From Aureispira anguillae (GTDB lineage: Bacteria; Bacteroidota; Bacteroidia; Chitinophagales; Saprospiraceae): 64,000 nucleotides of DNA. The notes under the pieces were generated by a model, which made no database searches, was not told where the DNA came from, and was given only the letters and a program-made list of their open reading frames with translations. Both the position numbers and the translations under genes were made by a program. The stretch covers positions 2,777,716-2,841,715 of the forward strand of contig NZ_AP026867.1 in assembly GCF_026000115.1 (NCBI RefSeq), written 5' to 3'. Below, one piece after another: positions 3,859-54,947 of this stretch; within the stretch, counting starts at the first letter, position 1, and each line of letters starts with the position of its first letter.

Positions 3859-4123
3859 TTCACGGTATAAGTTAGCAACCAAAAAAAATATTTTTAAAAT
3901 GTCTTTTAAAAATATAAAACCTTCCTTTTCTGTCAAAAAACAAACAAATTCTTGGTTAAATACAAAATAACAAGCCCCCCCATTAAAAAACTTGCCAATA
4001 ATACTTTATCTTTCGACTGTTAAAGAATCTTTAAAAGCCTCCACGCTGCATTTTACAGGAACCTATTACTTAACTAAAATTGTCAACCTCAAAACAATTT
4101 TTATTAAATTAAAAAACGCAACT

Positions 4124-6825: not shown

Positions 6826-6972
6826 CAAAAACAAACGAGCCAATGATGAATGATCACCATTGGCTCGTTTTAATAAAAAAGGAGCAGAAATACACCAGCT
6901 GCTACAACCACCTACCCTTGCTTGCTTTCACACCTGGGGGATTTAATGGGAGCTTGCCATGTATCTCCAACT
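6826..6972 (-). ncRNA. Candidate small RNA, copy A (minus strand): -7 promoter box, ~145-nt body, intrinsic terminator hairpin
   Basis: Minus strand reads ...TTATATTTG (a Bacteroidota TAnnTTTG -7 box at 6980..6987) with a TTG ~22 nt further upstream. The transcript would end in a 13-bp perfect hairpin (AAACGAGCCAATG/CATTGGCTCGTTT, 6833..6880) followed by U-rich sequence. The overlapping + strand ORFs in the two copies are in different frames, so the unit is not coding. Confidence 0.35.
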
Positions 6973-6995
6973 CCGAGTGCAAATATAAGACACTT
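6833..6995. repeat. Copy A of a ~165-bp direct repeat (about 95% identical to copy B)
   Basis: Aligns nearly base-for-base with 7252..7415: 'aaacgagccaatgatgaatgatcaccattggctcgttttaataaaaaaggagcagaaa.acaccagctgctacaaccacctacccttgcttgctttcacacctgggggatttaatgggagcttgccatg.atctccaactccg.gtgcaaatataaga'. Confidence 0.9.
6980..6987 (-). promoter_or_regulatory. Bacteroidota-type -7 promoter element (TATATTTG) for sRNA candidate copy A
   Basis: rc of CAAATATA; conserved in both repeat copies. Confidence 0.35.
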
Positions 6996-16897: not shown

Positions 16898-19297
16898 ATG
16901 AAGAAACTAGCCCCCCTTATTTTTTTTATATTCCTTTCCTTTTTGTGTAAGGCTCAATTTTTAGTTCAGGGCACTATTATCGATTCAATTAGTAAAACAC
17001 CGCTTCCTTTTGTTAACATTAGTTTTAATGGTGATCCTCAATTGGGTACTACATCAGATATTGACGGATATTTTAGTTTTGAACACAATGCTTCTTTAGG
17101 CTCTATCCAATTGAGTTATGTTGGTTATCAAAGTCAATCAATTCCACTTGATAGTTCCAAAGAATCCCTCTTATTAAGTATGCAAAAGACGGATTTTGCA
17201 CTAGAAGAAATAGTAGTAGTAGCTGGCGAAAATCCCGCTTACCGAATTATACGTCGTGCAGCTAAAAACAGAATACAGCACGATCCCGATCAAATACCTG
17301 CCTACACCTTTAGCAGTTATCATAAAATGAGGGTTTTTGACCAAAATAATCATCCCAACTTAACAGAGGACACTACTTTTTCTCAAAAACTGGATTTTTA
17401 TTATACCATGATGGAAATTCTATCTGAAACGCAATATATAGCCCCCGATAAGCAACAAGAAACCATCATAGCGAGCAAGGTATCTGGTTTTAAAGCTCCT
17501 ACTTTTGTTACCGCTTTTGCAGAAATACAGCCCACTAGTTTTCACAAAGAAAACTTTCTCATTTTAGACAAAGAATACCTAAATCCTATCAGTACAGGCT
17601 GCTTAAAAAAGTATGAATATCGCTTAGAAGATACCATTTATCAAGCACAAGATACCGTCTATATGATTAGTTTTTTTCCTAGAAAGGGGAAAAACTTTGA
17701 TGCTCTCAAAGGTATTCTATACATCAACACCAATGGTTATGCCATTCAAAATGTATTGGCAGAGCCCGCAGGAAGACAAAAAATTCATCTAAAAATAGAG
17801 CAACAATATACATTTATCGATCAACAAAAATGGTTTCCTACCCAACTCAATTTTGAAATTGAATTGGCTCCTAGAAAAACGGATACCTTTACCGTTCAAG
17901 GCAAAAAATACCTGAGCAATATCAATTTATCGCCCTCACTTACGCCTAAAGATTTTGGTCTTAACAAGGTCAATATTCGAGAAGATGCCCACCTCAAGGA
18001 TAGTACGTATTGGATAGCACACCGAAAGTATCAATTGAGTGCCAAAGAAAAAAAGACCTATCAGGTTATTGACAAAGTAGCACAAGGGCTTCCCATTGAA
18101 TTATTAATGGGGGTTATCAATGAATTGGGAGAAGAACGCATTCAACTAGGTCCTTTGTCTGTCAATTACACGCAAATAATGGAATTTAATTTGCACGAAC
18201 AATTTCGATTGGGTCTAGGACTATATAGCAGTTACAAATGGTGTCCTTATTTTTCTGTTGGTGGTTATTTTGCGCATGGTTTTAAAGATAAAAAATGGAA
18301 GTATGGCGGCAGTATTACCTTTCGTCCCAATCCTACAAAAGATTTTGGTTTTCAATTGAGTTATATAGATGATATTATAGAACCTGCCTCGATTATTCAA
18401 AACACGCATTCTTTGTCCAAAATGGTGCTGCCCAACCAAAGTTTTACTCGACGCAATGTACTGGATCAGATGGACAAAACCTATGAAATGGAGGTTTCTG
18501 CTTATTTCAGATCCTTTCGTTACCTTAGAACACGTATTTTTGGCAACTGGAGTTACAAAATTCCACTTTATGCGTATCGTTTTGCACTAAATAGTGAATC
18601 TCATCAGCAATTTAAATTTGCTCGAATTGGCATACAGTTTCGCTTTTCTTACAAAGAAGATTATATAAAAATAGGTTCTAGCAATGTAGGCATAAGAAGC
18701 CGCTATCCCGTTCTCTATTTCAGCTACACCAAAGGGTTAAAAGGTTTTTTAGATGGTGGGTTTGATTATCATAAAATTGTTGCAGGCTTACAAAGTAGTT
18801 TTTTCATCAAGGGTTTTGGTCGCACCTCTTGGTTTGTACAAGGAGGCTGGGTAGGGGGCGAAACGCCCTATCCGATCTTATTTAATGGTCGGGGCAGTTA
18901 TGACCGTTGGAGAATGTTTTTGATTAAAAACACCTTTCAAACCATGCGCCCCAATGAGTTTTTGTCCAACAAATTTGTATCTATTTTCCTAGAGCATAAT
19001 TTTGGTAATTTATTGTTTAACAGTCCTAATTTTAAGCCCGAAGTGAAGCTTTATCAAGCCATTGGTTTTGGGTGGCTTGACCGACCAGAACAGCATCAAG
19101 ATATTGTGGTGCAAGACATGAGAAAAGGGTATTTTGAAAGTGGCTTGATGCTCTCTAATCTCATTCGTTTGCCCATTTTTAACTTTGGTTATTTTGGGCT
19201 TGGAGCAGGTGTTTTTGTACGCTATGGTCCTTATTATTTACCCAATGCTATCATGGATAATATTGCCTTTAAAATTGATCTATCATTTTCTTTTTAA
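16898..19297 (+). CDS. CarboxypepD_reg-like domain plus DUF5686-family protein (Bacteroidota-specific, unknown function)
   Basis: Signal peptide. N-terminus 'QFLVQGTIIDSISKTPLPFVNISFNGDPQLGTTSDIDGYFSF' (carboxypeptidase regulatory-like domain). About 800 aa. Beta-rich C-terminal region ending in aromatic residues. Confidence 0.6.
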   Translation: MKKLAPLIFFIFLSFLCKAQFLVQGTIIDSISKTPLPFVNISFNGDPQLGTTSDIDGYFSFEHNASLGSIQLSYVGYQSQSIPLDSSKESLLLSMQKTDFALEEIVVVAGENPAYRIIRRAAKNRIQHDPDQIPAYTFSSYHKMRVFDQNNHPNLTEDTTFSQKLDFYYTMMEILSETQYIAPDKQQETIIASKVSGFKAPTFVTAFAEIQPTSFHKENFLILDKEYLNPISTGCLKKYEYRLEDTIYQAQDTVYMISFFPRKGKNFDALKGILYINTNGYAIQNVLAEPAGRQKIHLKIEQQYTFIDQQKWFPTQLNFEIELAPRKTDTFTVQGKKYLSNINLSPSLTPKDFGLNKVNIREDAHLKDSTYWIAHRKYQLSAKEKKTYQVIDKVAQGLPIELLMGVINELGEERIQLGPLSVNYTQIMEFNLHEQFRLGLGLYSSYKWCPYFSVGGYFAHGFKDKKWKYGGSITFRPNPTKDFGFQLSYIDDIIEPASIIQNTHSLSKMVLPNQSFTRRNVLDQMDKTYEMEVSAYFRSFRYLRTRIFGNWSYKIPLYAYRFALNSESHQQFKFARIGIQFRFSYKEDYIKIGSSNVGIRSRYPVLYFSYTKGLKGFLDGGFDYHKIVAGLQSSFFIKGFGRTSWFVQGGWVGGETPYPILFNGRGSYDRWRMFLIKNTFQTMRPNEFLSNKFVSIFLEHNFGNLLFNSPNFKPEVKLYQAIGFGWLDRPEQHQDIVVQDMRKGYFESGLMLSNLIRLPIFNFGYFGLGAGVFVRYGPYYLPNAIMDNIAFKIDLSFSF

Positions 19298-22200
19298 ATA
19301 CATCGTACATTTTAAGGGTTCCCAATACCAATTCTAGCGTATTCCCATTGGCAGTTGTGACCAAGCGTTCTTTTCTTTTTAGGTTGGTTATTGCCTTGTT
19401 ATAAATAGGATTGTTAGAAACCGTAATTAATTTGCCATTTTGATAATGAAAATAATACCAATTACCACTGGCTGCGGTTAGATAATAAATGAGTGCATCG
19501 CCGTCCCGATCATTGGGCAGAATTGCTAGTTTTCCATCTACTAATTGTCCAAGGTGCTGACTTCCGATGCTGACCAACTGTAACGATTTATTTTTAGATT
19601 GAAAGGACATCGTTTTAGCATTCCAAAACAAAGGATTATGGATGAAAAAGAAATCCTGTCTTTTATTTTTAGGCAATTGTAAGTCACCCTGATTTTTAAA
19701 CCTTTTCCACAATCTATCAAACAAGTTTTTGTCCTTTATCCAATTTTGTAAATGCTGTGCAAAATCAAGCTTATTGATACGGTTATAATCCAAAGGGTGT
19801 TTTAGGTTTTCGTCAGACAAAAAATCAGCCACCATCAATGCCTTAAGAACAGTGGGCAATTTAAAATCAATTCCCATCGTTATTTCAAAATGACAGTCCT
19901 TTTCTGAGTTGAGTAGATAGGTACAATTCCCTACCATGTCCAAGCCGATTTGAGGCATTCCCTTTTTATTAAATCCCTTATCCCAATTAAATCGCCCATC
20001 AATGACAACTTTTTGGCGCTGTTCATTTATTTTCAATACATCTCCCACTGTATTCCCCGCTAACAACCTAGCAGCACTCCCCCAGCAATAATTGCCATGC
20101 TCTGAATCAAATTTAAAAATATCGATTGTTTCAAAAATGGCTCGATCACTTGCCCGCTTTGGAGCACCCAAAATAGTAGTGTACAAACCGATAGAATCCA
20201 AATTTAGGTACAAACCTGTATATAAATTTTTATTGCTAAGTTGCTTCGATCGTTGGAGTTGAAGATATACATTTTGCTTGTCTATGCTTGACTGAATAGG
20301 AAACCATTGTTGATTGGGGAAGATAGAAGAGGCAAGTTTAGCTTCTCCTTCAAAAGATAATAACTTAGATTGCGCATAAAGTTTAACCTTCCCCTTAAAT
20401 TGAAGGTGCTGCCCCAAATAAAAACTAGCACTTTCATCTATTTTACCTTCTGCTGTTGTTACGGATTCGTGCTCAGATACTCGTTGCGTTTGAAGATTAG
20501 GCAATGCAATTTTTTGAAGCCTACCATTTCCCCAATCAAAGGTCAAAAAACCTTTTCCCTTATATGCATTCTTGTTTAAAATACTTATTTCAGCATCCTG
20601 AATTAGGTGATTTTGATGCAAGGTATCCGCAATAACAATGGCTCCTTTTAAGGGCTTTAGTTTAGCGGCTCCTTCTAGTAATACCTGCCCCTTATTAGGG
20701 TAAATAAACGCATCTGCTACCCGAATGTAATCCACGCCATCAATTTTAAGCTGCCCTGTTTCCAAATTATAATCCGCCTTTGTTCCTTTAAATTTCAAAG
20801 CGTCTTGCGCTGCCTCCGTTGCTAAAAAGAACCCCTTTTTACCATTTGTCCTTTCCATCAAGATATGGTTCGTTGCCATATTCCAATGAAATTGATCCAA
20901 AGAAGTTTGATATTTATTATAGGGCAATTCTGTAATCAAATTTTCTTCTTGAACAATAAAATCAGCGATCTTTTGCTTAAAGTCAATCTTCAACGCAACA
21001 TTTTCATTTTCAAAACCAAATTTTTGTGCCCCATTTGCTTTTAGTATAACAGCAGCCGAAGATGAACTCAGCCCATTCTGTCCAAATTCATAATCTCCCT
21101 TAGGGTTTGACTCAATGGTAGCTCCTGACCAATCAAAAGTCCCTCGACCTTTTAATCCTTCGGTTGTCAAAGTTAGCTGACCATCTAAGGAACAATTTTG
21201 TTGCTCAAACAATCGAAAAGGGAAACCTTCCCCTAAGGCAGAATTTAGGCATAGGCTATCTTGGTAAGGCAACCAACGCACCTTTATATTTTCGCCTTCT
21301 ACCCTAGGAAATTCAATTCCTGCCTGCACAGAAGCACTCAAACTAAACTGTTCAACAGCATTAGCCGTTAACAATTCTGGCAAAAAAGTAATCGCATTGG
21401 CTAGCATTGAAGCGCCTAAGCAACTGAATCTGCCCTTGCCCATCAAGCCTGCATTAGAAAGTTCTAAAACACCACTAAAGGTTCCCAAGCCATTTTTTAG
21501 ATGGCGACAATAAATAGCCTCAGGCTTATGATTGGGAATAAGCATCCTAAACCCCAAAGACAAATCGTGGTACATCACCCTCAATGGCGTTGTTATAGGA
21601 GCAAAAATATTGGCAGCATACAAACTCCCATTAAATGACAATTGCGCTGGTTTTAACTCATCTAAAGCATTGAGAACAAATGGTTCTAACTGATAATAAA
21701 ACGTTGCTCTAGGATAGCTGTTTTTGCCTTGAAGATTTCGTTGGTCATAATAGGCCCTAGAAAAAGTCGTTGATTCAAAAGAAGGAAATTTAGTCGCACT
21801 CTTTTTTCGTCCAGATTTATTGGTGGGTGAATCTATTGATAAAACACCTTTTGCTCCTTCTAAAACCGTCTGAATCGCTTCCAATTCTCTCGTCGGATTT
21901 CCTTGTGAATCAACCGCTCTTGCAGGAGGGGAATTTTCTTTTTGTTGCGCCCACTGGTTGTTGTATTTTTTGCGTTTATAAATAAAAAAATTTAGCCTAT
22001 CGATCTTTTCCAAGCCCACTTGGTAAGTCGTATAATTAAACTTAAAATCTCGCCCTAAAAAATCACAATTTCCTGCACTTAATTGCCCCTCAAAATGTAG
22101 ATTTCCCTTCTCCAAACAACGCACAGTCTTCTGTGGCTGCACAAAAACTTGTTGAGAATCGCTCAATAAAAATTGACGAACTCCAAAAACCGCAAGTTCT

Positions 22201-24071
22201 TTTTTATCAATATTTAAAACTGCATTGTTTTTTTTACTTTTTGAGTTAGAAGGCAAGGCTAACAACCTTATTTTATCATAATCGTGTTCAATTTTTTGCC
22301 GATTGGTAGATGTTATATAATGAAATAACTTTTTGCGCAATCGCAGCCTGCCCTTTGATTTATTATAAATCAAAAAACCATCTTTTTCCATCCGTAGATA
22401 CAAGGGCAATGTGGTTTCTTTATTAAACGTTGAGTTGGCAATTAGAGTGGGCATTTTTTTTACATCCATTGCCGCAAATCGGTACAACAGACCACTTCCT
22501 CGCATAAAATCGCTAAAATCCTGTTGTTCTTCTATTATTTTAAAACTCGTATTTTTTCGAGCACGTTGAATCTCATTGGAGGTCATCAAAATGACCTTTT
22601 CCATTCGCTTATCCAAGACCAAAGCCAAGTCGTTTGCATCCAGCCAATGTTCAGATGGATTAAGATTAGTATCAATAGATGCGTTCAATTTTATTCCATA
22701 CAACCCCATTTTAATAAGTGGATTAACCATTCCCAAGCTTTGATAAGCAGTGACCAAACCTTCATCAAAATAAGCCTCTGAGGAAAAGAGGGCATTTTGA
22801 TTATTATCACCAAATGCTATCGTATTGCTATCGATCTGCCACTCTACCCTATTCGCAGTTATGTTCATCGCCTGTAAGGAGTTGGCATAAGCCACTTCCG
22901 AAATTTTTCGTTGGGTTCGAGTTAATAGGATGGTTCTTAACTTGGGGTCGTATAAAAAATTAATCTCAGGATGGCAGATCGAATCTAAACTTCCATTTAC
23001 ACCATGAAGATAAAGGGTTGTGGTTGCAGCAAGCGATTGAATCTGCCCATTTTTTAGCCAATCAAATGCAGCACTTTCAATCTTTGCAATACGCCGTTGC
23101 GCTTTATTTTGTAGGTAAATGGTTGCGGTTGTATCTACTTTGCCTAACAACTGAAGTTTTTCCCCTTCTAAAATCCAACCCCCTTTTGCCTTTATCCCTT
23201 TGCGTTCTTGCTCTAGTTCGGCAATCGCTGATTTAAAGATAGGATGGCGAAAAGAAGCAATACTTCTTTTCCTTATTTTATGGTCTAAAACTCCTTGCAA
23301 GGGCGGCGCATTTCCAAACCAATTATAAAGCCTTACCTCAGATGCACTATAAAAATCATGAACCGTATTGATCTGGTATTCGCCCAATAACGCATAGGGG
23401 CTTTGTTGATCCTTCTTCCTCCAATTGACCCTTCCGCCCAATCCTTCCCAATGCTTTTCCAAAGGAAAATAACTCCCCTGTGTATTTAGAATACTTAGCG
23501 AATCCTTTTGAGCATAACAATAAAGATTGGTTTTGGAGTAATTAACAGCCAAGCGCCCTTCTTCATAGCTCCAATCAAAAGATGAGCTTGAAGCAAGCCA
23601 TTGATGGACTGCTTTTGGAGCTTCATACAATTGCCCTGTCTCCAAAAAAATACTAACCCATTTCAAATAGTCTTCTACTTTCGTATTAGCAGTTGTTTTG
23701 TCTAAAAATTGCCTAGTGATACGGAGCCACTTCTCCAATTCTGAAAACGAGAGCTGTTTATCTTTTGAAAAGGTATTTATAATGGTCAGTAAATACTGAA
23801 AAACAATAGCTTTTTGGGTATGTTTTAATAATTTGTTGCCAATTAAGGCGAGTGCCTGATAATGCGCTTTTGAGAGTTGTTGTTCTTCTTGCTGTCTCTT
23901 AAATTCGGCTAAGGTCAAGGCAGCAATTTTTGTTTTTTGAGGCTTCAACATTTTTTCAAAAAACTGATAGCAGGCTCTTGGGTCACTGGATATAGAATCT
24001 ACATCTTGCCCCTTCAAACCAACATTAGTTAAACATAAGCAAACAAATAACAAGATTTTAAAACGTTTCAT
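19269..24071 (-). CDS. Very large (1600 aa) secreted protein of unknown function, possibly AsmA/TamB-like
   Basis: Signal peptide 'MKRFKILLFVCLCLTNVGLKGQD'. Long beta-rich region without TM helices. The 3' end overlaps the convergent gene 16898..19297 by 29 bp. No catalytic motif recognised. Confidence 0.6.
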   Translation of the reverse strand: MKRFKILLFVCLCLTNVGLKGQDVDSISSDPRACYQFFEKMLKPQKTKIAALTLAEFKRQQEEQQLSKAHYQALALIGNKLLKHTQKAIVFQYLLTIINTFSKDKQLSFSELEKWLRITRQFLDKTTANTKVEDYLKWVSIFLETGQLYEAPKAVHQWLASSSSFDWSYEEGRLAVNYSKTNLYCYAQKDSLSILNTQGSYFPLEKHWEGLGGRVNWRKKDQQSPYALLGEYQINTVHDFYSASEVRLYNWFGNAPPLQGVLDHKIRKRSIASFRHPIFKSAIAELEQERKGIKAKGGWILEGEKLQLLGKVDTTATIYLQNKAQRRIAKIESAAFDWLKNGQIQSLAATTTLYLHGVNGSLDSICHPEINFLYDPKLRTILLTRTQRKISEVAYANSLQAMNITANRVEWQIDSNTIAFGDNNQNALFSSEAYFDEGLVTAYQSLGMVNPLIKMGLYGIKLNASIDTNLNPSEHWLDANDLALVLDKRMEKVILMTSNEIQRARKNTSFKIIEEQQDFSDFMRGSGLLYRFAAMDVKKMPTLIANSTFNKETTLPLYLRMEKDGFLIYNKSKGRLRLRKKLFHYITSTNRQKIEHDYDKIRLLALPSNSKSKKNNAVLNIDKKELAVFGVRQFLLSDSQQVFVQPQKTVRCLEKGNLHFEGQLSAGNCDFLGRDFKFNYTTYQVGLEKIDRLNFFIYKRKKYNNQWAQQKENSPPARAVDSQGNPTRELEAIQTVLEGAKGVLSIDSPTNKSGRKKSATKFPSFESTTFSRAYYDQRNLQGKNSYPRATFYYQLEPFVLNALDELKPAQLSFNGSLYAANIFAPITTPLRVMYHDLSLGFRMLIPNHKPEAIYCRHLKNGLGTFSGVLELSNAGLMGKGRFSCLGASMLANAITFLPELLTANAVEQFSLSASVQAGIEFPRVEGENIKVRWLPYQDSLCLNSALGEGFPFRLFEQQNCSLDGQLTLTTEGLKGRGTFDWSGATIESNPKGDYEFGQNGLSSSSAAVILKANGAQKFGFENENVALKIDFKQKIADFIVQEENLITELPYNKYQTSLDQFHWNMATNHILMERTNGKKGFFLATEAAQDALKFKGTKADYNLETGQLKIDGVDYIRVADAFIYPNKGQVLLEGAAKLKPLKGAIVIADTLHQNHLIQDAEISILNKNAYKGKGFLTFDWGNGRLQKIALPNLQTQRVSEHESVTTAEGKIDESASFYLGQHLQFKGKVKLYAQSKLLSFEGEAKLASSIFPNQQWFPIQSSIDKQNVYLQLQRSKQLSNKNLYTGLYLNLDSIGLYTTILGAPKRASDRAIFETIDIFKFDSEHGNYCWGSAARLLAGNTVGDVLKINEQRQKVVIDGRFNWDKGFNKKGMPQIGLDMVGNCTYLLNSEKDCHFEITMGIDFKLPTVLKALMVADFLSDENLKHPLDYNRINKLDFAQHLQNWIKDKNLFDRLWKRFKNQGDLQLPKNKRQDFFFIHNPLFWNAKTMSFQSKNKSLQLVSIGSQHLGQLVDGKLAILPNDRDGDALIYYLTAASGNWYYFHYQNGKLITVSNNPIYNKAITNLKRKERLVTTANGNTLELVLGTLKMYDVFKKKMIDQF

Positions 24072-40543: not shown

Positions 40544-41572
40544 ATTTACCGTTCTACTCTATTTATCTTTTTAATAAAAAATGGCATTGGTTTTTGCAAG
40601 CCCAACCCTCATCCCAAGATTCCAAATATACGCATCATGCATTGCAAACTCATCATAGTTCTTTGGATTAAATCCAATTTATATCCAGTATAACTTACAC
40701 ATCAACCGTACAAATGTTCATTTTTTTTGCTAAAAAACCATTGATAAAAACGAACATTATCACAAAAGATTTTTGCTAAAAAAAGAAATGCTCCAACTGG
40801 GCTAGAGTCGGAGCATCATTCCTAAATACTATAGTTCAAATTAATAGGAATAGATAATTCCATCATTATCAATAGACATAAGACGAATCTTTATGAATGT
40901 ATGACAATTTTCTTTGACATAAATTTCAAATAATCTTGATGGGCGTCAAAATCAGATAAAAAGCACCATAAAGTAATTCTTAATACCATCAAAAACAATG
41001 AAGTTTATCCATTACCTCGCCTAGGGCTTTTCCCTCGACGCTAATTCTCATGAAATGTACAAATTTTTTTTTCTTTATAAAAGAAAAAAAAGAATTTATC
41101 CCTTGATTATTACCAATATTCTAATAAAAAGTCTCTCTAAAGACAACAGAAGCAGGTTCTTGTCTTTTTTTTATACTCCAACCAGCTAGAAACTAAAATT
41201 ATTACATCTTTTATAAGCATTCTTCTCAAAATAGTAAGTAAGTAGATGGACAAAATTAGTGTCCTATTAATTAACGTATATTTTTTTAGCCTACAAGGCA
41301 AAAACCAAAGCTTTAGCGGGCTAAAGCGAGGATTTTTAACGCAGCTAGGGTAGAAAAAGATGCTTAATTTATTCATAATTATTTTTATCCACCTACTTAA
41401 TGAAGCAAAACTAATGATTGTAAATTTTAGCCGTCTTTTTGTACCAAATGAGACCATCAATGCTATTTTGTTTTCTGATTAAAAGAGATAAACTATCTCC
41501 ATTTAATCATTGATGGAGTGGCATTCGTAAAAGTAACCCTTTGGGTTCCCTCTAAACAAAAAAAAATCCAAA

Positions 41573-41660: not shown

Positions 41661-43553
41661 TTAATGTTCAATTTGGATGCGCTTGGCTACCCTAGCCTGT
41701 TCACTTTGGATATAAACAATGTACATTCCAGTTGGCAAACTAGAACAATCAATCTCGTAATCGTCTGTTGCCGCTCGTTCCCAATCGTTATAAAAAACAA
41801 CTTGCCCTGCTAGGTTGTATATGACTACCTGTTGAATTGGGTCTCCTAGCGTTGTTACAGTGAGAGTGCCAGTAGTAGGATTTGGAAATATAAGGATTGG
41901 TTCTTTAGGAGAGGTAAATGCCTGATGCTGATTCGCCAGTAAGCAACTATCAATTTCTAGATAAAATGAATCAGTCATCGGACAACCTTGTCCATTGTTT
42001 GGAACGATTGTAAAATAATAATTTCCTGTATGAGCAAATGTTAAGCTGTCTATTTGTCCGCTAATAGGCCCTGAACTAATTGTCCCCAATGGACCAATCC
42101 AATCGGCTTGATAAACCAAGCCATTATTAGGCAAGATGCCCTCCATATTTAACGTATCACCAGTACAATGCCATAAACTATCATAAGTAGGAGTTACAAT
42201 GGTTGGGGTATCTGCAAAAATATGAACCGTATTTAAACAAGTATTCCAATTGCCATTCGCATCTTCAACGGTTAAAGTATAAGTAACAGTCCCTATATCC
42301 TGACAAGTAAAAACAGAAGGCGTTAAATAGCTCGTATCAATTGTACAATTATCATAAGCTACCCCCACATCCGCAGGCGTTAGTATCCAAAGAGAATTAC
42401 CAGTTAGATTAACATTTGCAGCATTGCAAACTATGGTCGGCTTAATGCTATCTCTAATGGTAACTGTTGTTGCGCACGTACCTGTATTTCCACTAGGATC
42501 TCGAATCAATAAGTAAACAGAATCTACCCCAACGTCCACACAACTATAGTTCTTAATATAATTTCCGTTTAGAAAAGTTCGAGCTGTTATGGCACAATTA
42601 TCCGTGCTTAAGTCGTCAATATCCGCCGCTGATACCGCAGCATTTCCTGTGGTCGCCAAATACACTTCAACAGGCTTGCACTGTACAACAGGAGGAATGG
42701 TATCCAACACCTGAATTTGAGTGGCACAATTTACCATATTCCCATTGGCATCACCAATGGTTAAGTTTACGGTGTTGTTTAGTCCTATCTTAGAACAGTT
42801 GTAATTCCATACGCTGTCTCCATTAATATGAAAAAACAAATTATTGTTGCCACAATTGTCAACACTTCCAGCATCAAAATCAGAGGCAGCAACAGTTCCC
42901 TGTCCAAGGCTATCTACATAAACAGTTATAGTATTCAAACAAGATGCAATTGGAGGGATGTTGTCTACAATTGAAATAACTGCTCGGCAGCTATTTTGCC
43001 TTCCATGGTTATCAATTACGGTTAGACTAGCAACATGCGGAGAGCTTGCTATACTATCGCAATTAAATTGAATGCTTTGTTGGCCGTCAATTAATTTACT
43101 AGCAATCTGGCAATTATCCATACTATAGAAATCAATATCATCTGGAACAACGGTTACCAAGCCTGTACTATCCAAATATGTCGTTATATTTTGACAAGAA
43201 ACCAAGGGAGCCAAGGTATCACGAACTTGAATCTGCGTTGCACAAGTGGCTGAGTTTCCTGCATAATCAAAAACCCTCAAAACAGTTTGCGCAGTTAACC
43301 CCACCACAGAACAATCGACTAAAAGAGAGTCTTGCCCATTTATGGTATAACGTTGTATGCCGCAATTATCGACGCTCCCTGCATCTATCCTACTCGCCCT
43401 CACCCATTTTGTGCCTGTATTGTTTAAGTAAACCGCAAGTGGCTGATTCCTACAAAATACAGTAGGAGGCAAAGAATCAGAGGTGCATTGTGCTTGCAAT
43501 AAATGATTATTACAGAGGCATAACAGAATGCACCAAAAATACAATTTGTTCAT
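41661..43553 (-). CDS. Secreted HYR (hyalin-repeat)-like multi-repeat protein with a T9SS C-terminal sorting domain
   Basis: Signal peptide at the internal Met 'MNKLYFWCILLCLCNNHLLQAQ'. Six or more repeats of the form 'VDCS..G....V.RVFDYAGNSATCATQIQVRDTLAPLVSC'. C-terminus 'ILIFPNPTTGTLTVTT...IYNLAGQVVF...MYIVYIQSEQARVAKRIQIEH'. Confidence 0.75.
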   Translation of the reverse strand: MNKLYFWCILLCLCNNHLLQAQCTSDSLPPTVFCRNQPLAVYLNNTGTKWVRASRIDAGSVDNCGIQRYTINGQDSLLVDCSVVGLTAQTVLRVFDYAGNSATCATQIQVRDTLAPLVSCQNITTYLDSTGLVTVVPDDIDFYSMDNCQIASKLIDGQQSIQFNCDSIASSPHVASLTVIDNHGRQNSCRAVISIVDNIPPIASCLNTITVYVDSLGQGTVAASDFDAGSVDNCGNNNLFFHINGDSVWNYNCSKIGLNNTVNLTIGDANGNMVNCATQIQVLDTIPPVVQCKPVEVYLATTGNAAVSAADIDDLSTDNCAITARTFLNGNYIKNYSCVDVGVDSVYLLIRDPSGNTGTCATTVTIRDSIKPTIVCNAANVNLTGNSLWILTPADVGVAYDNCTIDTSYLTPSVFTCQDIGTVTYTLTVEDANGNWNTCLNTVHIFADTPTIVTPTYDSLWHCTGDTLNMEGILPNNGLVYQADWIGPLGTISSGPISGQIDSLTFAHTGNYYFTIVPNNGQGCPMTDSFYLEIDSCLLANQHQAFTSPKEPILIFPNPTTGTLTVTTLGDPIQQVVIYNLAGQVVFYNDWERAATDDYEIDCSSLPTGMYIVYIQSEQARVAKRIQIEH

Positions 43554-43576
43554 AATATAATAGTATGTCGTTAATG

Positions 43577-43626
43577 TATGTGTGTGTGTGTTGTGTGTAT
43601 TTAGCCTACTTGTGTGTGTGTGTGTT
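43577..43626. repeat. Two (TG)n/(CA)n dinucleotide microsatellite tracts 25-75 bp upstream of the HYR-repeat gene start
   Basis: 'gtatgtgtgtgtgtgttgtgtgt' and 'tgtgtgtgtgtgtgtg' (8 perfect units). Confidence 0.9.
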
Positions 43627-44517
43627 CCGTCAGAAAGTGGGAATTCTTTCTTAAATGATTCTCTATAAAAGTAGTTTATCAAACAACAAAAGTTGCTTAA
43701 TTTTTAAAAAGAGGTGATTGATTGTAAAATGGAACTAAAGACTAATGTTTAGAGAAAGTCTAGACAATTACTTTTCTCTAAAAAATCAACTTAATAATAG
43801 GTTTTTAGTTTTTACTCTAAACAAAAATTATCCTTATCTTTTGCTTATACTCTTTAACCGTAATACTCCGTTAATTAACTGTGTTGCTACTACGTGGTTT
43901 TTAGTTTTTTAATGTTTTAAGTTACAAAAACATATGATACTAATAATCAACTGCGCAGCACTCATGCAATAATATGATACAATTTACTACGTGAGCCTTG
44001 TTACTCACTCTGTTCGTGAGGTCGCAAGCTCTGTTCGGGTTTTCAACGGAGTAATGTAACCGATTACAATTGATACTACAATAATACAATAAAAAACAAA
44101 AACTACCAACAATAGGCAGAATTTAATTTTAGACTAAACCTTTTGGTCAAAATTAAATTCTAATAAAAAATTTAGGTTTTTTATATAAAAAAAACAGCAT
44201 TAAGAAAATGAAAAATAAGTGCATACTTCCGCTTACGAACTAGTTTTATTGCTTGCTGCTGTTAATTCCCACCTCACACTTAAAATATTCCCTATCCATT
44301 TTATAAGAATCAAAGGGATAACGTTTAGCCTAAAAAAAGAAGATTTTTAAGTTTTAACTTTTAAATTGTATGAATATTCAATTATTTTATTTTACTTTGT
44401 ATTACACCGATCATTAAATACACAATGTTTTACAAACAAATAGATTTGTTTTTGCTACTAAAAACCTTGCATAAGCATTCAAATTTATTGCATATTTATT
44501 TCACGAAAATTAGTTTT

Positions 44518-45371: not shown

Positions 45372-46574
45372 ATGAAAAATTTAATCTTCCCTAGCCTTTT
45401 ACTATTAACGCTACTATTTTTGACAGGTCTTGCTCAAGCTCAAACTGTCGCCATCCCCGATGCCAATTTCAAAACAGTATTGCTTAACAATACCGCCATC
45501 AATACTAATGGGGATACAGAAATCCAAACCATAGAAGCCCAATCCTTTTCAGGAAATCTTAATGTAAACAATAGAAACATCCTAGATCTTACAGGTATTG
45601 AAGCCTTTACGGCCCTAAGTGGTCTAGACTGTGGGGGTAATCAATTAACAAATCTAAATGTGACCCAAAATACAGCGCTAACCAGCCTCAGTTGTCATTC
45701 TAATCAACTTAGCAGCCTAAATTTGGCTCAAAATACAGCATTAGAACATTTAAATTGCTTTTATAATCAGTTGACAAGTTTAAATTTAACGCAATGTACA
45801 GCACTAACTCAATTGCAATGTAACAATAACCAACTTAACAGTTTAGACCTTAGTGCTTGCACAGCCTTACTTCATTTAGATTGCTCCAGTAATCAATTGA
45901 CCAGTTTTAATATAACCAAAAACACCGCTTTAATAAGACTCGATTGTTCTCTTAATCAGATTTCAAGTTTGGATCTTACCGCCTGCCCTGCCCTTCTCAA
46001 TGTTTCTTGCAGCATTAATCAATTATCTGCCTTGGATCTTAGTCAAAATCTCCTTTTAGTACACTTATATTGCTCTCGCAATCAACTAAGCAGTTTAGAT
46101 CTTAGCCAGAATTCCGCCCTAAAAACCTTACAGTGTGCCAACAATCAATTAACCTTCTTAAATGTAAAAAATGGCAACAATCAAGCGATTACTAGTTTCA
46201 TGACGTTTTACAACCCTAACCTAACTTGTATACAAGTAGACAATGCCACCTATTCTAGTTCAAACTGGCCCCTTATTGATCTTACAAGCCACTTTAGCAC
46301 CAACTGTTTTACCAACCGTACAAGCTTAACAGCAACAGAGCAAAACATCAAAGTTTACCCAAATCCTATCGTGCAAAATTTCACCGTTGATTTAGGGCAA
46401 TCACAGCCAACGTTTACGGTACAAATTACCAACACCACAGGACAAATTATTTTGAAGAAAACGTATACCAATACCCAACAAATAGAGATCGCCTTACAAG
46501 AACATTCTGGTATTTATTTTTTAACCATCTACAACGAAAAAGAAATATTCACGACTAAAATCATCAAAGAATAA
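45372..46574 (+). CDS. Leucine-rich-repeat (internalin-like) protein with a T9SS C-terminal sorting domain
   Basis: Signal peptide. About 10 repeats of 'L..L.C..NQL.SLDLS'. C-terminus 'IKVYPNPIVQNFTVDL...GIYFLTIYNEKEIFTTKIIKE'. Confidence 0.75.
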   Translation: MKNLIFPSLLLLTLLFLTGLAQAQTVAIPDANFKTVLLNNTAINTNGDTEIQTIEAQSFSGNLNVNNRNILDLTGIEAFTALSGLDCGGNQLTNLNVTQNTALTSLSCHSNQLSSLNLAQNTALEHLNCFYNQLTSLNLTQCTALTQLQCNNNQLNSLDLSACTALLHLDCSSNQLTSFNITKNTALIRLDCSLNQISSLDLTACPALLNVSCSINQLSALDLSQNLLLVHLYCSRNQLSSLDLSQNSALKTLQCANNQLTFLNVKNGNNQAITSFMTFYNPNLTCIQVDNATYSSSNWPLIDLTSHFSTNCFTNRTSLTATEQNIKVYPNPIVQNFTVDLGQSQPTFTVQITNTTGQIILKKTYTNTQQIEIALQEHSGIYFLTIYNEKEIFTTKIIKE

Positions 46575-51805: not shown

Positions 51806-53258
51806 TGGTTTCTATGGCTTCTTTTAGCCATGTTTTACTAACAATAGGCGTTGCCGCTTCAAAAAATAATTCTAGTTTTTCAACTTCTTTCTGGAATTTT
51901 TCTTTGCGAATAAACCCTTGACTGTCTCTCAATTTGTAAATTTTGCGAATGACATTGATAAAGTTGTAGAACATTTCTTTATCCAAGTCTGTCATTTGTT
52001 GGTTTCGCTTTAGGTAATTCCGAAAAGCATCAATTAGAGAATACAGGGCTTCGCCTTCGTCTAGCTCATAATAGATTCTCAATTGAATCATTTTTGCTCC
52101 TGTATGATAAGTCCAATTGGAAAAAACGACATTGTACAAGGCTTGCAAGGCACCTTTATAATCCTTGGTAGAATACAATAAAAAAGACAGCAAATAAGAA
52201 TAAACACTCTCCCGAACTTCGGGAAGCAGTGCATCCTTATAGGTTTCTATAAATTCTTCCGCCCATTTATAATCACCAAGATTAATGGCAATCGTGCCTA
52301 TATTTTTAAAATCTCCCGCAGATAAAAAGCCATCTACAAAATTAATTTCATGCTTAACCAAAAACTTGGAAATACTAAGCAGTTCTCGCAAATATTTATT
52401 GCTTGCGGTATTTCTTTTATAAGCTCTTATGCAATGATTTTCTAAATAATCGTAAATGTTTTTTAGCTCCAATTTTGAAAAGAGAGCTTGATATTCTTCC
52501 AACCATTGTTTTACATTAAAATACTCCTCGTCTGTACGATCCCCATTTAATAACATTTTAAGGGTTGCTGCGTATATTTTAATGGTTGGTTCTTGAGCGT
52601 AACTGCTGTTTTGCTGGTTCAAATAAACAAATAGTTCGTCTACCAAACGATATTGATAATTGCTGCCGATGACCTTATTTCGGCTAACCATATCACAGGC
52701 AATTTTTAGTTTTTTGGTAATGAAAAACAAGTCCAAAAAATCATTTTTCATTTGCAGGTTTTCATTATAGCTCCTACCTCCTTGGGTAATAAAATTTACA
52801 TCTAGTTCTTTGTAATAGGCAAATTTTTCCCAATAAAGATCTTCTATGTCGCTATACGAACTATCTGAACTACGTTCTATCTTACGCAGGATTGCATTGT
52901 AATCTTTGAATTGTTTGCGCTGTCTTAGTTCTGCTAAGATCTTGATTAAATGTTGATTTTTTTTATCCTCATGGGTCGTAATCACTAAAAAATCATGCAA
53001 TAGCCCCAATAATTTAGAAGCCACGCTATGCAAAGCATTGCCATCAAATTGTTTATTGGGATACAAATGCTTAAATACCCGTTCTTTTTCGAGGCGATGT
53101 TGTCGCTTATTATTTGGAATATACTTGGCTAAATACAAACATAGCTTCTTAACCTCCGCATGTTTATTATAAAATGGCGAATGCACATAGTCCGAAAAAC
53201 GAGTAATTTCTCTAGAATTTAAATACTGAAAAAGTGTTACAAGTTTAGTTTTATGCAT
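51783..53258 (-). CDS. Hypothetical alpha-helical protein (491 aa), unknown function
   Basis: Long ORF with no recognised motif. The 3' end overlaps the convergent gene by 23 bp. Confidence 0.55.
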   Translation of the reverse strand: MHKTKLVTLFQYLNSREITRFSDYVHSPFYNKHAEVKKLCLYLAKYIPNNKRQHRLEKERVFKHLYPNKQFDGNALHSVASKLLGLLHDFLVITTHEDKKNQHLIKILAELRQRKQFKDYNAILRKIERSSDSSYSDIEDLYWEKFAYYKELDVNFITQGGRSYNENLQMKNDFLDLFFITKKLKIACDMVSRNKVIGSNYQYRLVDELFVYLNQQNSSYAQEPTIKIYAATLKMLLNGDRTDEEYFNVKQWLEEYQALFSKLELKNIYDYLENHCIRAYKRNTASNKYLRELLSISKFLVKHEINFVDGFLSAGDFKNIGTIAINLGDYKWAEEFIETYKDALLPEVRESVYSYLLSFLLYSTKDYKGALQALYNVVFSNWTYHTGAKMIQLRIYYELDEGEALYSLIDAFRNYLKRNQQMTDLDKEMFYNFINVIRKIYKLRDSQGFIRKEKFQKEVEKLELFFEAATPIVSKTWLKEAIETIKNQSEY

Positions 53259-54478: not shown

Positions 54479-54623
54479 AAATAATTAAGTACAGCTATAG
54501 GCTAGGTCTGTTGTTAAATCCACTTAGTTAATTATCTTTATGGAAGCTTTAGGCCTAAAGTAACTCAATATTATGTTAAAAAAATTATACCAACATTTAT
54601 TTAAGCAAAAAAAAAATATCAAT

Positions 54624-54947
54624 ATGAAATGGAAAGCGCTTAATACCATTCAGGACCTAGAAACGGCTCTAGAAGCGTCTCATAATCAGCCCGTAGCCTT
54701 ATTCAAACACAGTACCCGTTGCTCGGTTTCTTTAATGGCAAAAAAAAGCGTTGAGCGCTTTTGGGACTTAGATATTGATGCTTATTATTTGGATTTAATA
54801 GCCCATAGAGATGTGTCCAATGCTATCGCCGATCAGCTTAATATTCAACACCAATCGCCTCAAATGATCCTAGTAAAAAAAGGAGAAGCAATCTATAATG
54901 CTTCACATGGGGCAATAGATGTAGATGCTATGGGAGAACTTCTATAA
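54624..54947 (+). CDS. ytxJ: YtxJ-like thioredoxin-fold protein (bacillithiol-system monothiol redoxin family, DUF2847)
   Basis: 'ALFKHSTRCSVS' contains the TRCxxS signature. About 108 aa from the internal Met 'MKWKAL'. Confidence 0.65.
   Translation: MKWKALNTIQDLETALEASHNQPVALFKHSTRCSVSLMAKKSVERFWDLDIDAYYLDLIAHRDVSNAIADQLNIQHQSPQMILVKKGEAIYNASHGAIDVDAMGELL

What the first reader, a model, noticed from the sequence alone, without database searches (positions are those of the whole stretch)
43554..43640. Dinucleotide (TG/CA) microsatellites immediately upstream of a T9SS surface-protein gene: candidate phase-variation switch
Two tracts, (TG)~6 interrupted and a perfect (TG)8, lie 25-75 bp upstream of the signal-peptide start codon of the HYR-repeat T9SS protein. 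That position is where the promoter -33/-7 spacing or a 5' leader would be affected by slipped-strand gain or loss of repeat units. The frame is also open through the repeats back to an upstream ATG (MINYFY..., translated as THTHT...), so if translation started there, a unit change would shift the frame. Simple-sequence-repeat control of surface adhesins is classical in Neisseria/Haemophilus/Bacteroides, but such tracts are rare in bacterial genomes.
Basis: partly seen in the sequence, partly recalled or inferred. Interest (0 to 1): 0.55.

Follow-up and report, generated by a model that had tools for sequence, protein, structure and literature searches.

The report
CA microsatellite upstream of T9SS gene
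Two short CA-dinucleotide runs sit just in front of a secreted surface-protein gene of the eel-larva pathogen Aureispira anguillae; they are real and far beyond chance, but they most likely lie in the untranslated mRNA leader, and nothing available shows that they act as an on/off switch.

Summary
On the + strand, (TG)7.5 at 43611-43625 and an interrupted tract at 43575-43598 (perfect core (TG)6.5) are the only dinucleotide runs of 4 or more units in 64 kb. On the gene strand they read (CA)n, 22-72 nt upstream of ATG 43553 of a 630-aa HYR plus T9SS-sorting-domain protein of Aureispira anguillae.

The switch interpretation is only partly supported:
- **Frameshift idea rejected.** The upstream in-frame start is TTG, not ATG. 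It would bury the signal peptide. Orthologues start at the ATG, and one has an in-frame stop 8 codons upstream.
- **Promoter-spacer idea disfavoured.** No Bacteroidota -7 box (TAnnTTTG) or TTG lies around the tracts. A promoter-like pair conserved in three species (GCAAC, 17-21 nt, T[A/T]nnTTT[A/G]) lies upstream of them, which puts the tracts in a leader of about 107 nt.
- **The tracts are a lineage-specific insertion of about 50 nt.** The spacer they occupy is 68, 19 and 2 nt long in the three species.
- **Predicted folding is insensitive to unit number.**
- **Tract lengths (7 and 6 full units) are borderline for hypermutability.**

No second strain exists in the databases, so length polymorphism could not be tested. 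One oddity remains: the sister species has a degenerate CA tract elsewhere in the same intergenic region.

The parts
43611..43625 (-). Distal perfect tract: (CA)7.5 on the gene strand, (TG)7.5 on the + strand; 58-72 nt upstream of the ATG
   Evidence: It begins directly after the conserved GGAACA block.
43575..43598 (-). Proximal interrupted tract, on the gene strand: TA(CA)3 A (CA)6 TACA. Perfect core 43579-43591 = 6.5 units; 22-45 nt upstream of the ATG
43599..43610 (-). 12-nt linker between the tracts (AGTAGGCTAAAT on the gene strand). It belongs to the lineage-specific insertion of about 50 nt
   Evidence: Absent from the orthologous position in L005 and L004.
41661..43553 (-). Gene for a 630-aa T9SS cargo protein: N-terminal signal peptide, HYR/Ig-like repeats, type A C-terminal sorting domain. 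WP_264792828.1, Aureispira anguillae
43680..43682 (-). In-frame upstream TTG used as the start in GenBank BDS11675.1 (673 aa). Rejected here as the start codon
43623..43650 (-). Block conserved in three species: dyad GAAAGaattcccaCTTTCT (43650-43632) followed by GGAACA (43628-43623). The GGnAACA element ends 68 nt from the ATG here, 19 nt in the sister species and 2 nt in the outgroup
43666..43673 (-). Best candidate -7 promoter box, TACTTTTA (consensus TAnnTTTG, 1 mismatch). Predicted transcription start near 43661
   Evidence: Consensus and position (-12 to -5) from PMC6847099. Inferred, not mapped.
43686..43715 (-). Conserved upstream block ACCTCTTTTTAAAAAT..GCAACTTTTGT, containing GCAAC at 43696-43692, 18 nt before the -7-like box

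Best explanation
The tracts are a compound (CA)n microsatellite specific to the A. anguillae lineage. It arose by replication slippage, probably seeded at the ...GGAACA(T/C)A... sequence. It sits inside the 5' untranslated leader of a fast-evolving gene for a T9SS-secreted HYR-repeat surface protein.

It lies downstream of the likely sigma-A-type promoter and of a conserved dyad block, and upstream of the true ATG. In that position, gain or loss of a CA unit changes leader length by 2 nt. It does not change the reading frame or promoter geometry.

The most likely effect on expression is none or slight. An unstructured, A/C-rich spacer is compatible with initiation without a Shine-Dalgarno sequence, as in Bacteroidota. 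The tracts are mildly slippage-prone at best and are not an on/off switch.

- **Shown:** the tracts, their non-randomness, the identity of the gene, the start codon, the absence of the tracts at the homologous place in orthologues, and the variable spacer length.
- **Inferred:** the promoter and transcription-start position, the location in the leader, and neutrality.
For: 1. **True start is ATG 43553.** The signal peptide begins there and orthologues align from there. The sister species (L005) has an in-frame stop 8 codons upstream of its ATG. The outgroup L004 is open for about 30 codons upstream. RefSeq uses this start.
2. **Orthology is positional.** The flanks are RNase D on one side and the prominin-like gene plus a CarboxypepD_reg/TonB-type pair on the other. 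The flanking proteins are 87% identical, against 54% for the HYR protein.
3. **The tracts are an insertion.** The conserved dyad plus GGnAACA block is followed by 68 nt (window), 19 nt (L005-L007, L003) and 2 nt (L004) before the ATG. The extra sequence in the window is the two tracts plus the linker. The length of this spacer is therefore evolutionarily free.
4. **Candidate promoter lies upstream of the tracts in all three species.**
   - The arrangement GCAAC, 17-21 nt, T[A/T]nnTTT[A/G] is present in each.
   - Exact TAnnTTTG boxes sit 40-49 nt before several other start codons in this window, so this promoter type is used here.
   - No -7-like box or TTG lies around the tracts.
5. **In F. 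johnsoniae the -33 element is weak.** This makes a spacer-length switch a poor fit for this phylum (PMC6847099).
6. **Folding is insensitive to unit number.** Varying either tract from 0 to 12 units leaves the mean unpaired probability of positions -20 to +20 at 0.59-0.61.
7. **Lengths are borderline.** Seven and six full units are at or below the cut-offs used for phase-variable dinucleotides. A survey of Neisseria found that dinucleotide tracts did not vary among isolates (PMC5953494).
8. **The only other assembly agrees.** The Logan contig from DRR408736 runs unbroken and identical through both tracts.
Against: - The transcription start is not mapped, and the -7-like box has a mismatch at the nearly invariant G.
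- The gene is the kind that contingency loci control: a surface protein that evolves fast, in a host-associated pathogen of eel larvae (PMC11230566).
- Two tracts side by side are far beyond chance.
- The sister species carries a degenerate CA-rich tract on the same strand in the orthologous intergenic region. It is the only such tract in its 10 kb. That hints at selection or a shared origin rather than pure neutrality.
- Leader-located repeats can modulate expression in other bacteria (M. catarrhalis uspA2; my own knowledge, not verified in the library).
- Length heterogeneity was not tested.
Confidence: 0.55

Rival explanations
1. Transcriptional phase variation or 'volume control'. Slippage in one or both tracts changes the spacing or helical phase between promoter elements, or between a regulator site (the conserved dyad GAAAG..CTTTC) and downstream elements. 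One specific version: the conserved GGAAC acts as an ECF-type -35 element and the distal tract is its spacer. Expression of the surface protein would then switch or be graded within a clonal population.
For: - The tracts are highly non-random.
- They lie within 75 nt of the start of a rapidly diverging T9SS surface protein.
- They reach the lower candidate cut-off of 6 units.
- The distal tract starts exactly at a conserved GGAAC.
- The organism is described as a pathogen of eel larvae.
- A CA-rich tract recurs in the orthologous intergenic region of the sister species.
Against: - No -7/-33-like motifs flank the tracts.
- In the orthologues GGnAACA ends only 19 and 2 nt from the ATG, so there it cannot be a -35 element.
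- The spacer length is unconstrained across species (68, 19 and 2 nt).
- The sister-species tract is interrupted and identical in three samples, while two homopolymers in the same region vary.
- The A. anguillae tract is identical in the only other assembly.
- Simple-sequence-repeat phase variation is not documented in Bacteroidota.
Confidence: 0.22
2. A functional CA-rich element that does not depend on length. It could be a binding site for a protein on the DNA or on the mRNA leader. It could be a translation-enhancing unstructured spacer. It could be an alternating purine-pyrimidine tract that adopts Z-DNA under supercoiling and tunes the divergent promoters. Selection would then maintain CA-richness rather than mutability.
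For: - In two species, the only CA-rich tract in 64 kb and in 10 kb lies in the orthologous intergenic region, and on the gene's sense strand in both.
- The tracts share the same order of interruptions..ACACA-A-CACACA..CA-T-ACA...
- The tract is predicted to be unpaired.
- Low structure near the start codon favours initiation in Bacteroidota (PMC6847099).
Against: - The positions differ: about 230 nt upstream of the ATG and upstream of the candidate promoter in the sister species, but in the leader here.
- The outgroup L004 has none.
- Removing the tracts in silico changes start-site accessibility only from 0.59 to 0.57.
- No known RNA family matches.
- No binding factor is known.
Confidence: 0.12
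3. Translational frameshift switch. Translation starts at the upstream TTG (43682), reads the repeats as THTHT..., and a gain or loss of 2 nt shifts the frame and turns the protein off.
For: The frame is open from TTG 43682 through both tracts. The GenBank record BDS11675.1 annotates this 673-aa product.
Against: - The 43-residue extension would sit in front of the signal peptide that Sec export, and hence T9SS, requires.
- The orthologues' signal peptides begin at the equivalent of ATG 43553.
- The sister species has an in-frame stop 8 codons upstream of its ATG. L004 has one about 30 codons upstream.
- RefSeq uses the 630-aa form.
- There is no ATG in the extension.
- The extension sequence is low-complexity repeat translation.
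Confidence: 0.03

Closest known systems
Haemophilus influenzae hifA/hifB fimbrial promoter (TA)n switch (named from my own knowledge; simple-sequence-repeat control in Haemophilus is listed in PMC11868660)
   Same: A dinucleotide repeat immediately upstream of a surface adhesin gene, with slipped-strand mispairing as the proposed source of change.
   Different: There the repeat is the spacer between the -35 and -10 elements of overlapping divergent promoters, with 9-11 units. Here no promoter elements flank the tracts. The likely promoter is upstream, the units are CA, there are only 6-7 per tract, and there are two tracts.
Moraxella catarrhalis uspA2 (AGAT)n repeat in the 5' untranslated region (my own knowledge; the library search found only a secondary mention)
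   Same: A simple repeat inside the transcribed leader of a surface-adhesin gene. This is the best positional analogue if the leader assignment is right.
   Different: It is a tetranucleotide with many more units, and its effect on expression was shown by experiment. It gives graded, not on/off, control. None of this has been tested here.
Invertible-promoter (invertase) phase variation of Bacteroides surface structures (PMC11868660)
   Same: The same phylum and the same class of target: surface molecules.
   Different: That mechanism is site-specific inversion between inverted repeats by a recombinase. No convincing inverted repeats flank this intergenic region. The best pair has 25-nt AT-rich arms, 80% complementary.
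Insertion-sequence switching of the T6SS in Aureispira sp. CCB-QB1 (bioRxiv 10.1101/2024.01.29.577165)
   Same: The same genus, and a heritable mechanism generating population heterogeneity in a cell-envelope machine.
   Different: It works by IS insertion and loss, not repeat slippage. The target is the T6SS, not a T9SS cargo protein.
Non-variable dinucleotide tracts found in Neisseria phasome surveys (PMC5953494)
   Same: Dinucleotide tracts of 6 or more units near genes that pass the bioinformatic filter.
   Different: In Neisseria they were compared across 118 genomes and did not change in repeat number. Here no second genome exists for comparison.

Membership tests
SSR-mediated phase-variable (contingency) locus | Uninterrupted repeat tract long enough to be hypermutable (dinucleotide cut-off of 6 or 8 units in PhasomeIt-based surveys) | tested here: inconclusive
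   There are 7 full units (43611-43625) and 6 full units (43579-43591). This passes the cut-off of 6 and fails the cut-off of 8; both are quoted in PMC5953494.
SSR-mediated phase-variable (contingency) locus | The tract is placed so that a unit change alters expression: inside the ORF, between core promoter elements, or at a regulator site | tested here: inconclusive
   It is not inside the ORF, because the true start is ATG 43553. No -7/-33 motifs flank it, and the best candidate promoter is upstream. The transcription start is not mapped.
SSR-mediated phase-variable (contingency) locus | Tract-length polymorphism within a population and among strains | not testable with these tools
   No second A. 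anguillae strain is in the protein collection. A Logan contig from DRR408736 is identical. It may come from the same strain's genome project, which I could not check, and a consensus contig cannot show minority alleles.
SSR-mediated phase-variable (contingency) locus | Association with a surface or host-interaction gene under diversifying pressure | tested here: met
   The gene encodes a HYR plus T9SS sorting-domain protein. It is 54% identical to its orthologue, while the flanking proteins are 87% identical.
Promoter-spacer repeat switch (hif type) | The repeat lies between the two core promoter elements | tested here: not met
   There is no TTG on the gene strand in 43554-43650 (read). There is no match to TAnnTTTG with 1 mismatch or fewer downstream of 43666.
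Translational (in-frame) repeat switch | The repeat lies inside the translated reading frame | tested here: not met
   The upstream TTG frame is open. However, the extension precedes the signal peptide and the orthologues' signal peptides begin at the ATG. The sister species has an in-frame stop 8 codons upstream of its ATG.
Leader (5' UTR) repeat modulating expression (uspA2 type) | The repeat is in the transcribed leader, and expression depends on repeat number | tested here: inconclusive
   The leader location is inferred from the conserved promoter-like pair. Predicted start-site accessibility is flat from 0 to 12 units. Dependence of expression on repeat number cannot be tested here.
Bacteroidota invertible promoter | Inverted repeats flanking a promoter segment, with a nearby recombinase | tested here: not met
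   Only AT-rich, imperfect inverted repeats were found in 43300-44500. No recombinase domain was found in the neighbours scanned. Not every ORF in the window was scanned.
T9SS cargo protein (type A C-terminal domain) | N-terminal Sec signal peptide and C-terminal Por_Secre_tail domain | tested here: met
   Por_Secre_tail matches residues 555-628 at E = 1.7e-14. The N-terminus is MNKLYFWCILLCLCNNHLLQAQC. NCBI's name is 'T9SS type A sorting domain-containing protein'.

The most novel reading that the evidence does not exclude
The tracts are a true contingency locus: the first simple-sequence-repeat-driven, slippage-based switch or rheostat for a T9SS-secreted adhesin in Bacteroidota, in a Saprospiraceae pathogen of eel larvae. 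The CA-rich tract in the orthologous intergenic region of the sister species would then be the decayed trace of the same selected, mutable element.
Probability: 0.12. Interest if true: 0.6.

Novelty: new member of a known kind. Interest (0 to 1): 0.3.

Why it matters
If the tracts did vary and control expression, repeat-mediated phase variation would extend to Bacteroidota and to T9SS cargo. In that phylum only invertases and, in Aureispira, insertion sequences are known to generate such heterogeneity. It would also bear on how a fish-larva pathogen varies its surface.

As it stands, the practical value is modest:
- It corrects a start-codon annotation: the GenBank 673-aa form should be 630 aa.
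- It gives a concrete, cheap test: a read pileup at one locus.
- It shows that an intergenic microsatellite next to an adhesin gene is not in itself evidence of a switch.

Tried and rejected
- **Genome-collection scan with the protein.** It returned only one distant match to the sorting domain, so no orthologues came from there.
- **Metagenome scan for the conserved dyad plus GGnAACA pattern.** It found nothing.
- **Cluster look-ups for the HYR protein, the prominin-like neighbour, the LRR T9SS protein and RNase D.** Every 90% cluster contains only the A. anguillae genome itself, so no strain comparison is possible.
- **Rfam.** At gathering threshold and at E up to 1 on the intergenic region there was no relevant family. 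The only hit was a meaningless eukaryotic scaRNA at E = 0.11.
- **RNA folds of the leaders and of the GC-richer island.** The z-scores were -0.4, -0.1, +1.1 and +0.2, so there is no evidence of selected structure. A natural variant in L007 (G to A) even breaks a pair of the dyad. I therefore describe it as a conserved block with dyad symmetry, not a proven hairpin.
- **Sigma-70-type promoter scan.** Hits did not exceed shuffles, and it is the wrong promoter type for this phylum.
- **GGAAC as an ECF -35 element with the distal tract as spacer.** Rejected as the main reading because in the orthologues the motif ends 19 and 2 nt from the ATG.
- **Invertible promoter.** No convincing inverted repeats.
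- **The two tracts as a 30-nt tandem duplication (family D1, 72%).** Most of the identity is the CA run itself, so this is not convincing.
- **Homology between the window tracts and the sister-species tract.** The interruption order is similar, but the flanks map elsewhere: L005 'TTGTAGCATAC' pairs with window ~44073-44063, not with the linker. This is unresolved.

Full report
**1. The observation**

The + strand carries TGTGTGTGTGTGTGT at 43611-43625, which is 7.5 units. It also carries an interrupted tract at 43575-43598, TG TA (TG)6 T (TG)3 T, whose perfect core at 43579-43591 is 6.5 units. A regular-expression scan shows these are the only dinucleotide runs of 4 or more units of any type in the 64-kb window.

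(TG)6 with up to one mismatch has 7 overlapping hits, all at this site. Dinucleotide-preserving shuffles give 0.13 +/- 0.39. An iid model predicts about 1.2 (CA)6-type runs and 0.07 (CA)7-type runs in the whole 7.58-Mb genome. Two such runs 20 nt apart are therefore products of slippage or duplication, not of chance.

**2. The gene and the organism**

The minus-strand ORF 41661-43553 encodes 630 aa. It has a HYR domain and a Por_Secre_tail (type A T9SS sorting) domain. Its N-terminus, MNKLYFWCILLCLCNNHLLQAQC, looks like a signal peptide.

The protein is 100% identical to WP_264792828.1 of Aureispira anguillae, whose chromosome is 7,583,665 bp. The literature describes A. anguillae as a pathogen of Japanese eel leptocephali (PMC11230566).

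The window holds three more T9SS cargo genes: 148-3795, 3992-6733 and 45372-46574.

**3. The start codon**

GenBank BDS11675.1 is a 673-aa version that starts at TTG 43682 and translates the repeats as THTHT... RefSeq uses the 630-aa form.

Two orthologue groups were recovered from Logan assemblies. One is 54% identical (P0002 cluster; loci L003, L005, L006, L007). The other is 45% identical (P0003; L004). Their signal peptides start at the position equivalent to ATG 43553. The sister species has an in-frame stop 8 codons upstream of its ATG. L004 is open for about 30 codons upstream.

A 43-residue extension in front of a Sec signal peptide would also be non-functional (inference). The frameshift-switch reading is rejected.

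**4. Orthology and rate of evolution**

Synteny is conserved. RNase D lies on one side. A small membrane protein ('prominin family') and a pair of CarboxypepD_reg/TonB-type proteins lie on the other.

The flanking receptor-like proteins are 87% identical between A. anguillae and the sister species. The HYR protein is 54% identical and the divergent membrane protein 41%. This is a fast-evolving island in a conserved frame.

**5. What the orthologous upstream regions show**

Local alignment finds a few conserved blocks in an otherwise unalignable, AT-rich intergenic region (28% GC). Going towards the gene, they are:
- an ACTCC...GGAGT inverted repeat
- ACCTCTTTT(T)AAAAA...GCAAC
- a -7-like box
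- a block with dyad symmetry: window GAAAGaattcccaCTTTCT (43650-43632), L005 GGAAAGtttccctCTTTCT, L004 AAAGGActaatcaTCCTTT
- GG(n)AACA

After GGnAACA the ATG follows at 2 nt (L004), 19 nt (L005-L007, L003) and 68 nt (window). The extra sequence in A. anguillae is exactly the distal tract, the 12-nt linker and the proximal tract. The distal tract begins within GGAACA-CACA...

With L004 as outgroup, the tracts are a derived insertion or expansion in the A. anguillae lineage. The length of this segment is evidently not constrained.

**6. Where the promoter probably is**

The Bacteroidota sigma-A promoter has a nearly invariant -7 box, TAnnTTTG, at -12 to -5, and a weak -33 element (PMC6847099; PMC9723704). 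In this window exact boxes lie 40-49 nt before several start codons: 148, 16898, 49430 and 62563. The type is therefore used here.

Upstream of the HYR gene, the only match with 1 mismatch or fewer within 130 nt is TACTTTTA at 43673-43666. In all three species a T[A/T]nnTTT[A/G] box sits 17-21 nt after a conserved GCAAC. No TTG and no -7-like box lie around or between the tracts.

I infer a transcription start near 43661. That gives a leader of about 107 nt containing the dyad block and both tracts. This is inference and the start is not mapped.

The consequence is that unit changes would alter leader length, not promoter geometry.

**7. Would leader length matter?**

The tracts are predicted to be unpaired. 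Varying either tract from 0 to 12 units leaves the mean unpaired probability of -20 to +20 at 0.59-0.61. Removing the whole insertion gives 0.57. None of the leader folds is better than shuffles. On present evidence a change of one unit should be nearly neutral.

**8. Mutability and polymorphism**

Phasome surveys use dinucleotide cut-offs of 6 or 8 units. They also report that dinucleotide tracts in 118 Neisseria genomes did not vary (PMC5953494). The tracts here are at that border.

The one independent assembly of this locus is a 2.6-kb Logan contig from DRR408736. It is identical over 480 nt, including both tracts. It may come from the same strain's genome project, which I could not check, and a consensus contig cannot exclude minority alleles.

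No other A. anguillae strain exists in the 15-billion-protein collection. The 90% clusters of four proteins from this locus hold only this genome.

In the sister species, three samples differ at two homopolymers (G5/G6, A7/A8) in the same intergenic region. They are identical across their interrupted CA tract.

**9. An unexplained point**

A CA-alternation score singles out this site alone in the window (17, against 7 or less elsewhere). In L005-L007 it singles out one site alone: L005 5760-5805, CACATACACAACACACACATACACACACAAA, with a score of 19. That site lies in the orthologous intergenic region, on the sense strand of the orthologous gene.

However, it lies about 230 nt upstream of the ATG and upstream of the conserved promoter-like blocks. 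The order of interruptions resembles that of the window's proximal tract, but the flanks do not match. L004 has nothing comparable.

Possible explanations are recurrent birth, movement of a CA segment within the region, or selection for a CA-rich element. I cannot decide between them. This is the main reason I keep appreciable probability on functional readings.

**10. Comparison with known systems**

Repeat-driven phase variation is classical in Neisseria, Haemophilus, Campylobacter, Helicobacter and mycoplasmas. In Bacteroides, phase variation works through invertases (PMC11868660). In Aureispira the documented switch is IS insertion into T6SS genes (bioRxiv 10.1101/2024.01.29.577165).

The hif-type promoter-spacer model fails its defining feature here, and so does the in-frame model. 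The nearest positional analogue is a leader repeat such as uspA2 (AGAT)n (my own knowledge). Its defining property, expression that depends on repeat number, is untested here.

**11. Verdict**

This is a real, lineage-specific compound CA microsatellite. It most likely sits in the 5' leader of a T9SS surface-protein gene. It is a legitimate but weak candidate for repeat-mediated variation.
- The third, a leader effect, is predicted to be small.
- Estimated probabilities: neutral or near-neutral leader microsatellite 0.55; transcriptional switch or rheostat 0.22; length-independent CA element 0.12; frameshift switch 0.03.
- Interest 0.3; a new member of a known kind.

Noticed in passing
window 43680-43682 / 41661-43553: Annotation conflict. 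GenBank BDS11675.1 gives a 673-aa product starting at TTG 43682 and translating the CA repeats as THTHT... RefSeq WP_264792828.1 gives 630 aa from ATG 43553. Orthologues and the signal peptide support the 630-aa form. The divergent neighbour likewise has 266-aa (GenBank) and 235-aa (RefSeq) versions.
   Followed up: yes
L005 5760-5805 (also L006 5759-5804, L007 488-533): The sister species carries an interrupted CA-rich tract in the orthologous intergenic region, on the same strand. It lies about 230 nt upstream of the ATG, at a non-homologous position. It is the only CA-rich tract in those loci.
   Followed up: partly
L005/L006/L007 intergenic region (alignment A3, columns 175 and 329): Homopolymer length differences among three samples of the sister species: G5 versus G6 and A7 versus A8. 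The rest of the 520-nt region is nearly identical. This could be real slippage polymorphism or assembly error.
   Followed up: no
window 43875-44047: An insert of about 170 nt that is GC-richer than its surroundings (43% versus 28%). It lies between the arms ACTCCGTT (44047-44040) and AACGGAGT (43873-43866). In the sister species these arms form a short hairpin with a 14-nt loop. The insert contains CGAACAGAG twice and small hairpins. The Logan contig L001 ends inside it, at window 43969. It has no Rfam match, no significant fold and no second copy in the window.
   Followed up: partly
window 44118-44161: A perfect 13-nt inverted repeat, AGAATTTAATTTT / AAAATTAAATTCT, 18 nt apart, in the same intergenic region. 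In the sister species the corresponding motif, TTGGAATTAAATTTTGTTTTG, occurs as two direct copies 29 nt apart. It may be a regulator-binding site for the divergent gene pair.
   Followed up: no
window 3975-3981: A C7 run in a 36% GC genome, 10 nt before the listed TTG start of another T9SS cargo gene (3992-6733; SprB repeats, MAM, Por_Secre_tail). About 0.8 such C/G runs are expected per 64 kb by chance (my own iid estimate), so it is not significant on its own.
   Followed up: partly
window 54607-54616: An A10 run at codons 12-15 of a small BrxC-type (monothiol bacilliredoxin) gene, 54573-54947. It is the longest homopolymer in the window. The Pfam domain starts at residue 22, so the true start may lie downstream.
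   Followed up: no
window 30747-33254 (minus strand): An 835-aa protein with major vault protein shoulder and repeat domains (MVP_shoulder E = 3e-28, Vault_3) plus Band_7. It is a bacterial vault-like protein.
   Followed up: no
window 19269-24071 (minus strand): A 1600-aa ORF with no Pfam match at E <= 0.001.
   Followed up: no
window 6877-6981 (minus strand): Signal recognition particle RNA (Rfam Bacteroidales_small_SRP, 55.6 bits). An exact TAnnTTTG box lies at 6987-6980, at its 5' end. This confirms that Bacteroidota-type promoters are used in this genome.
   Followed up: partly
window 41137-41460 versus L004 2490-6833 / L005 7872-9341: Gene content between the HYR gene and RNase D differs among species. 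The relatives have a 489-aa gene on the opposite strand, and L004 has an extra 785-aa HYR/SprB T9SS gene. In the window the best match to the 489-aa protein is 37% identical and lies elsewhere, at 51813-53258. The window has an extra LRR T9SS gene at 45372-46574. This is a variable island of T9SS cargo genes.
   Followed up: partly
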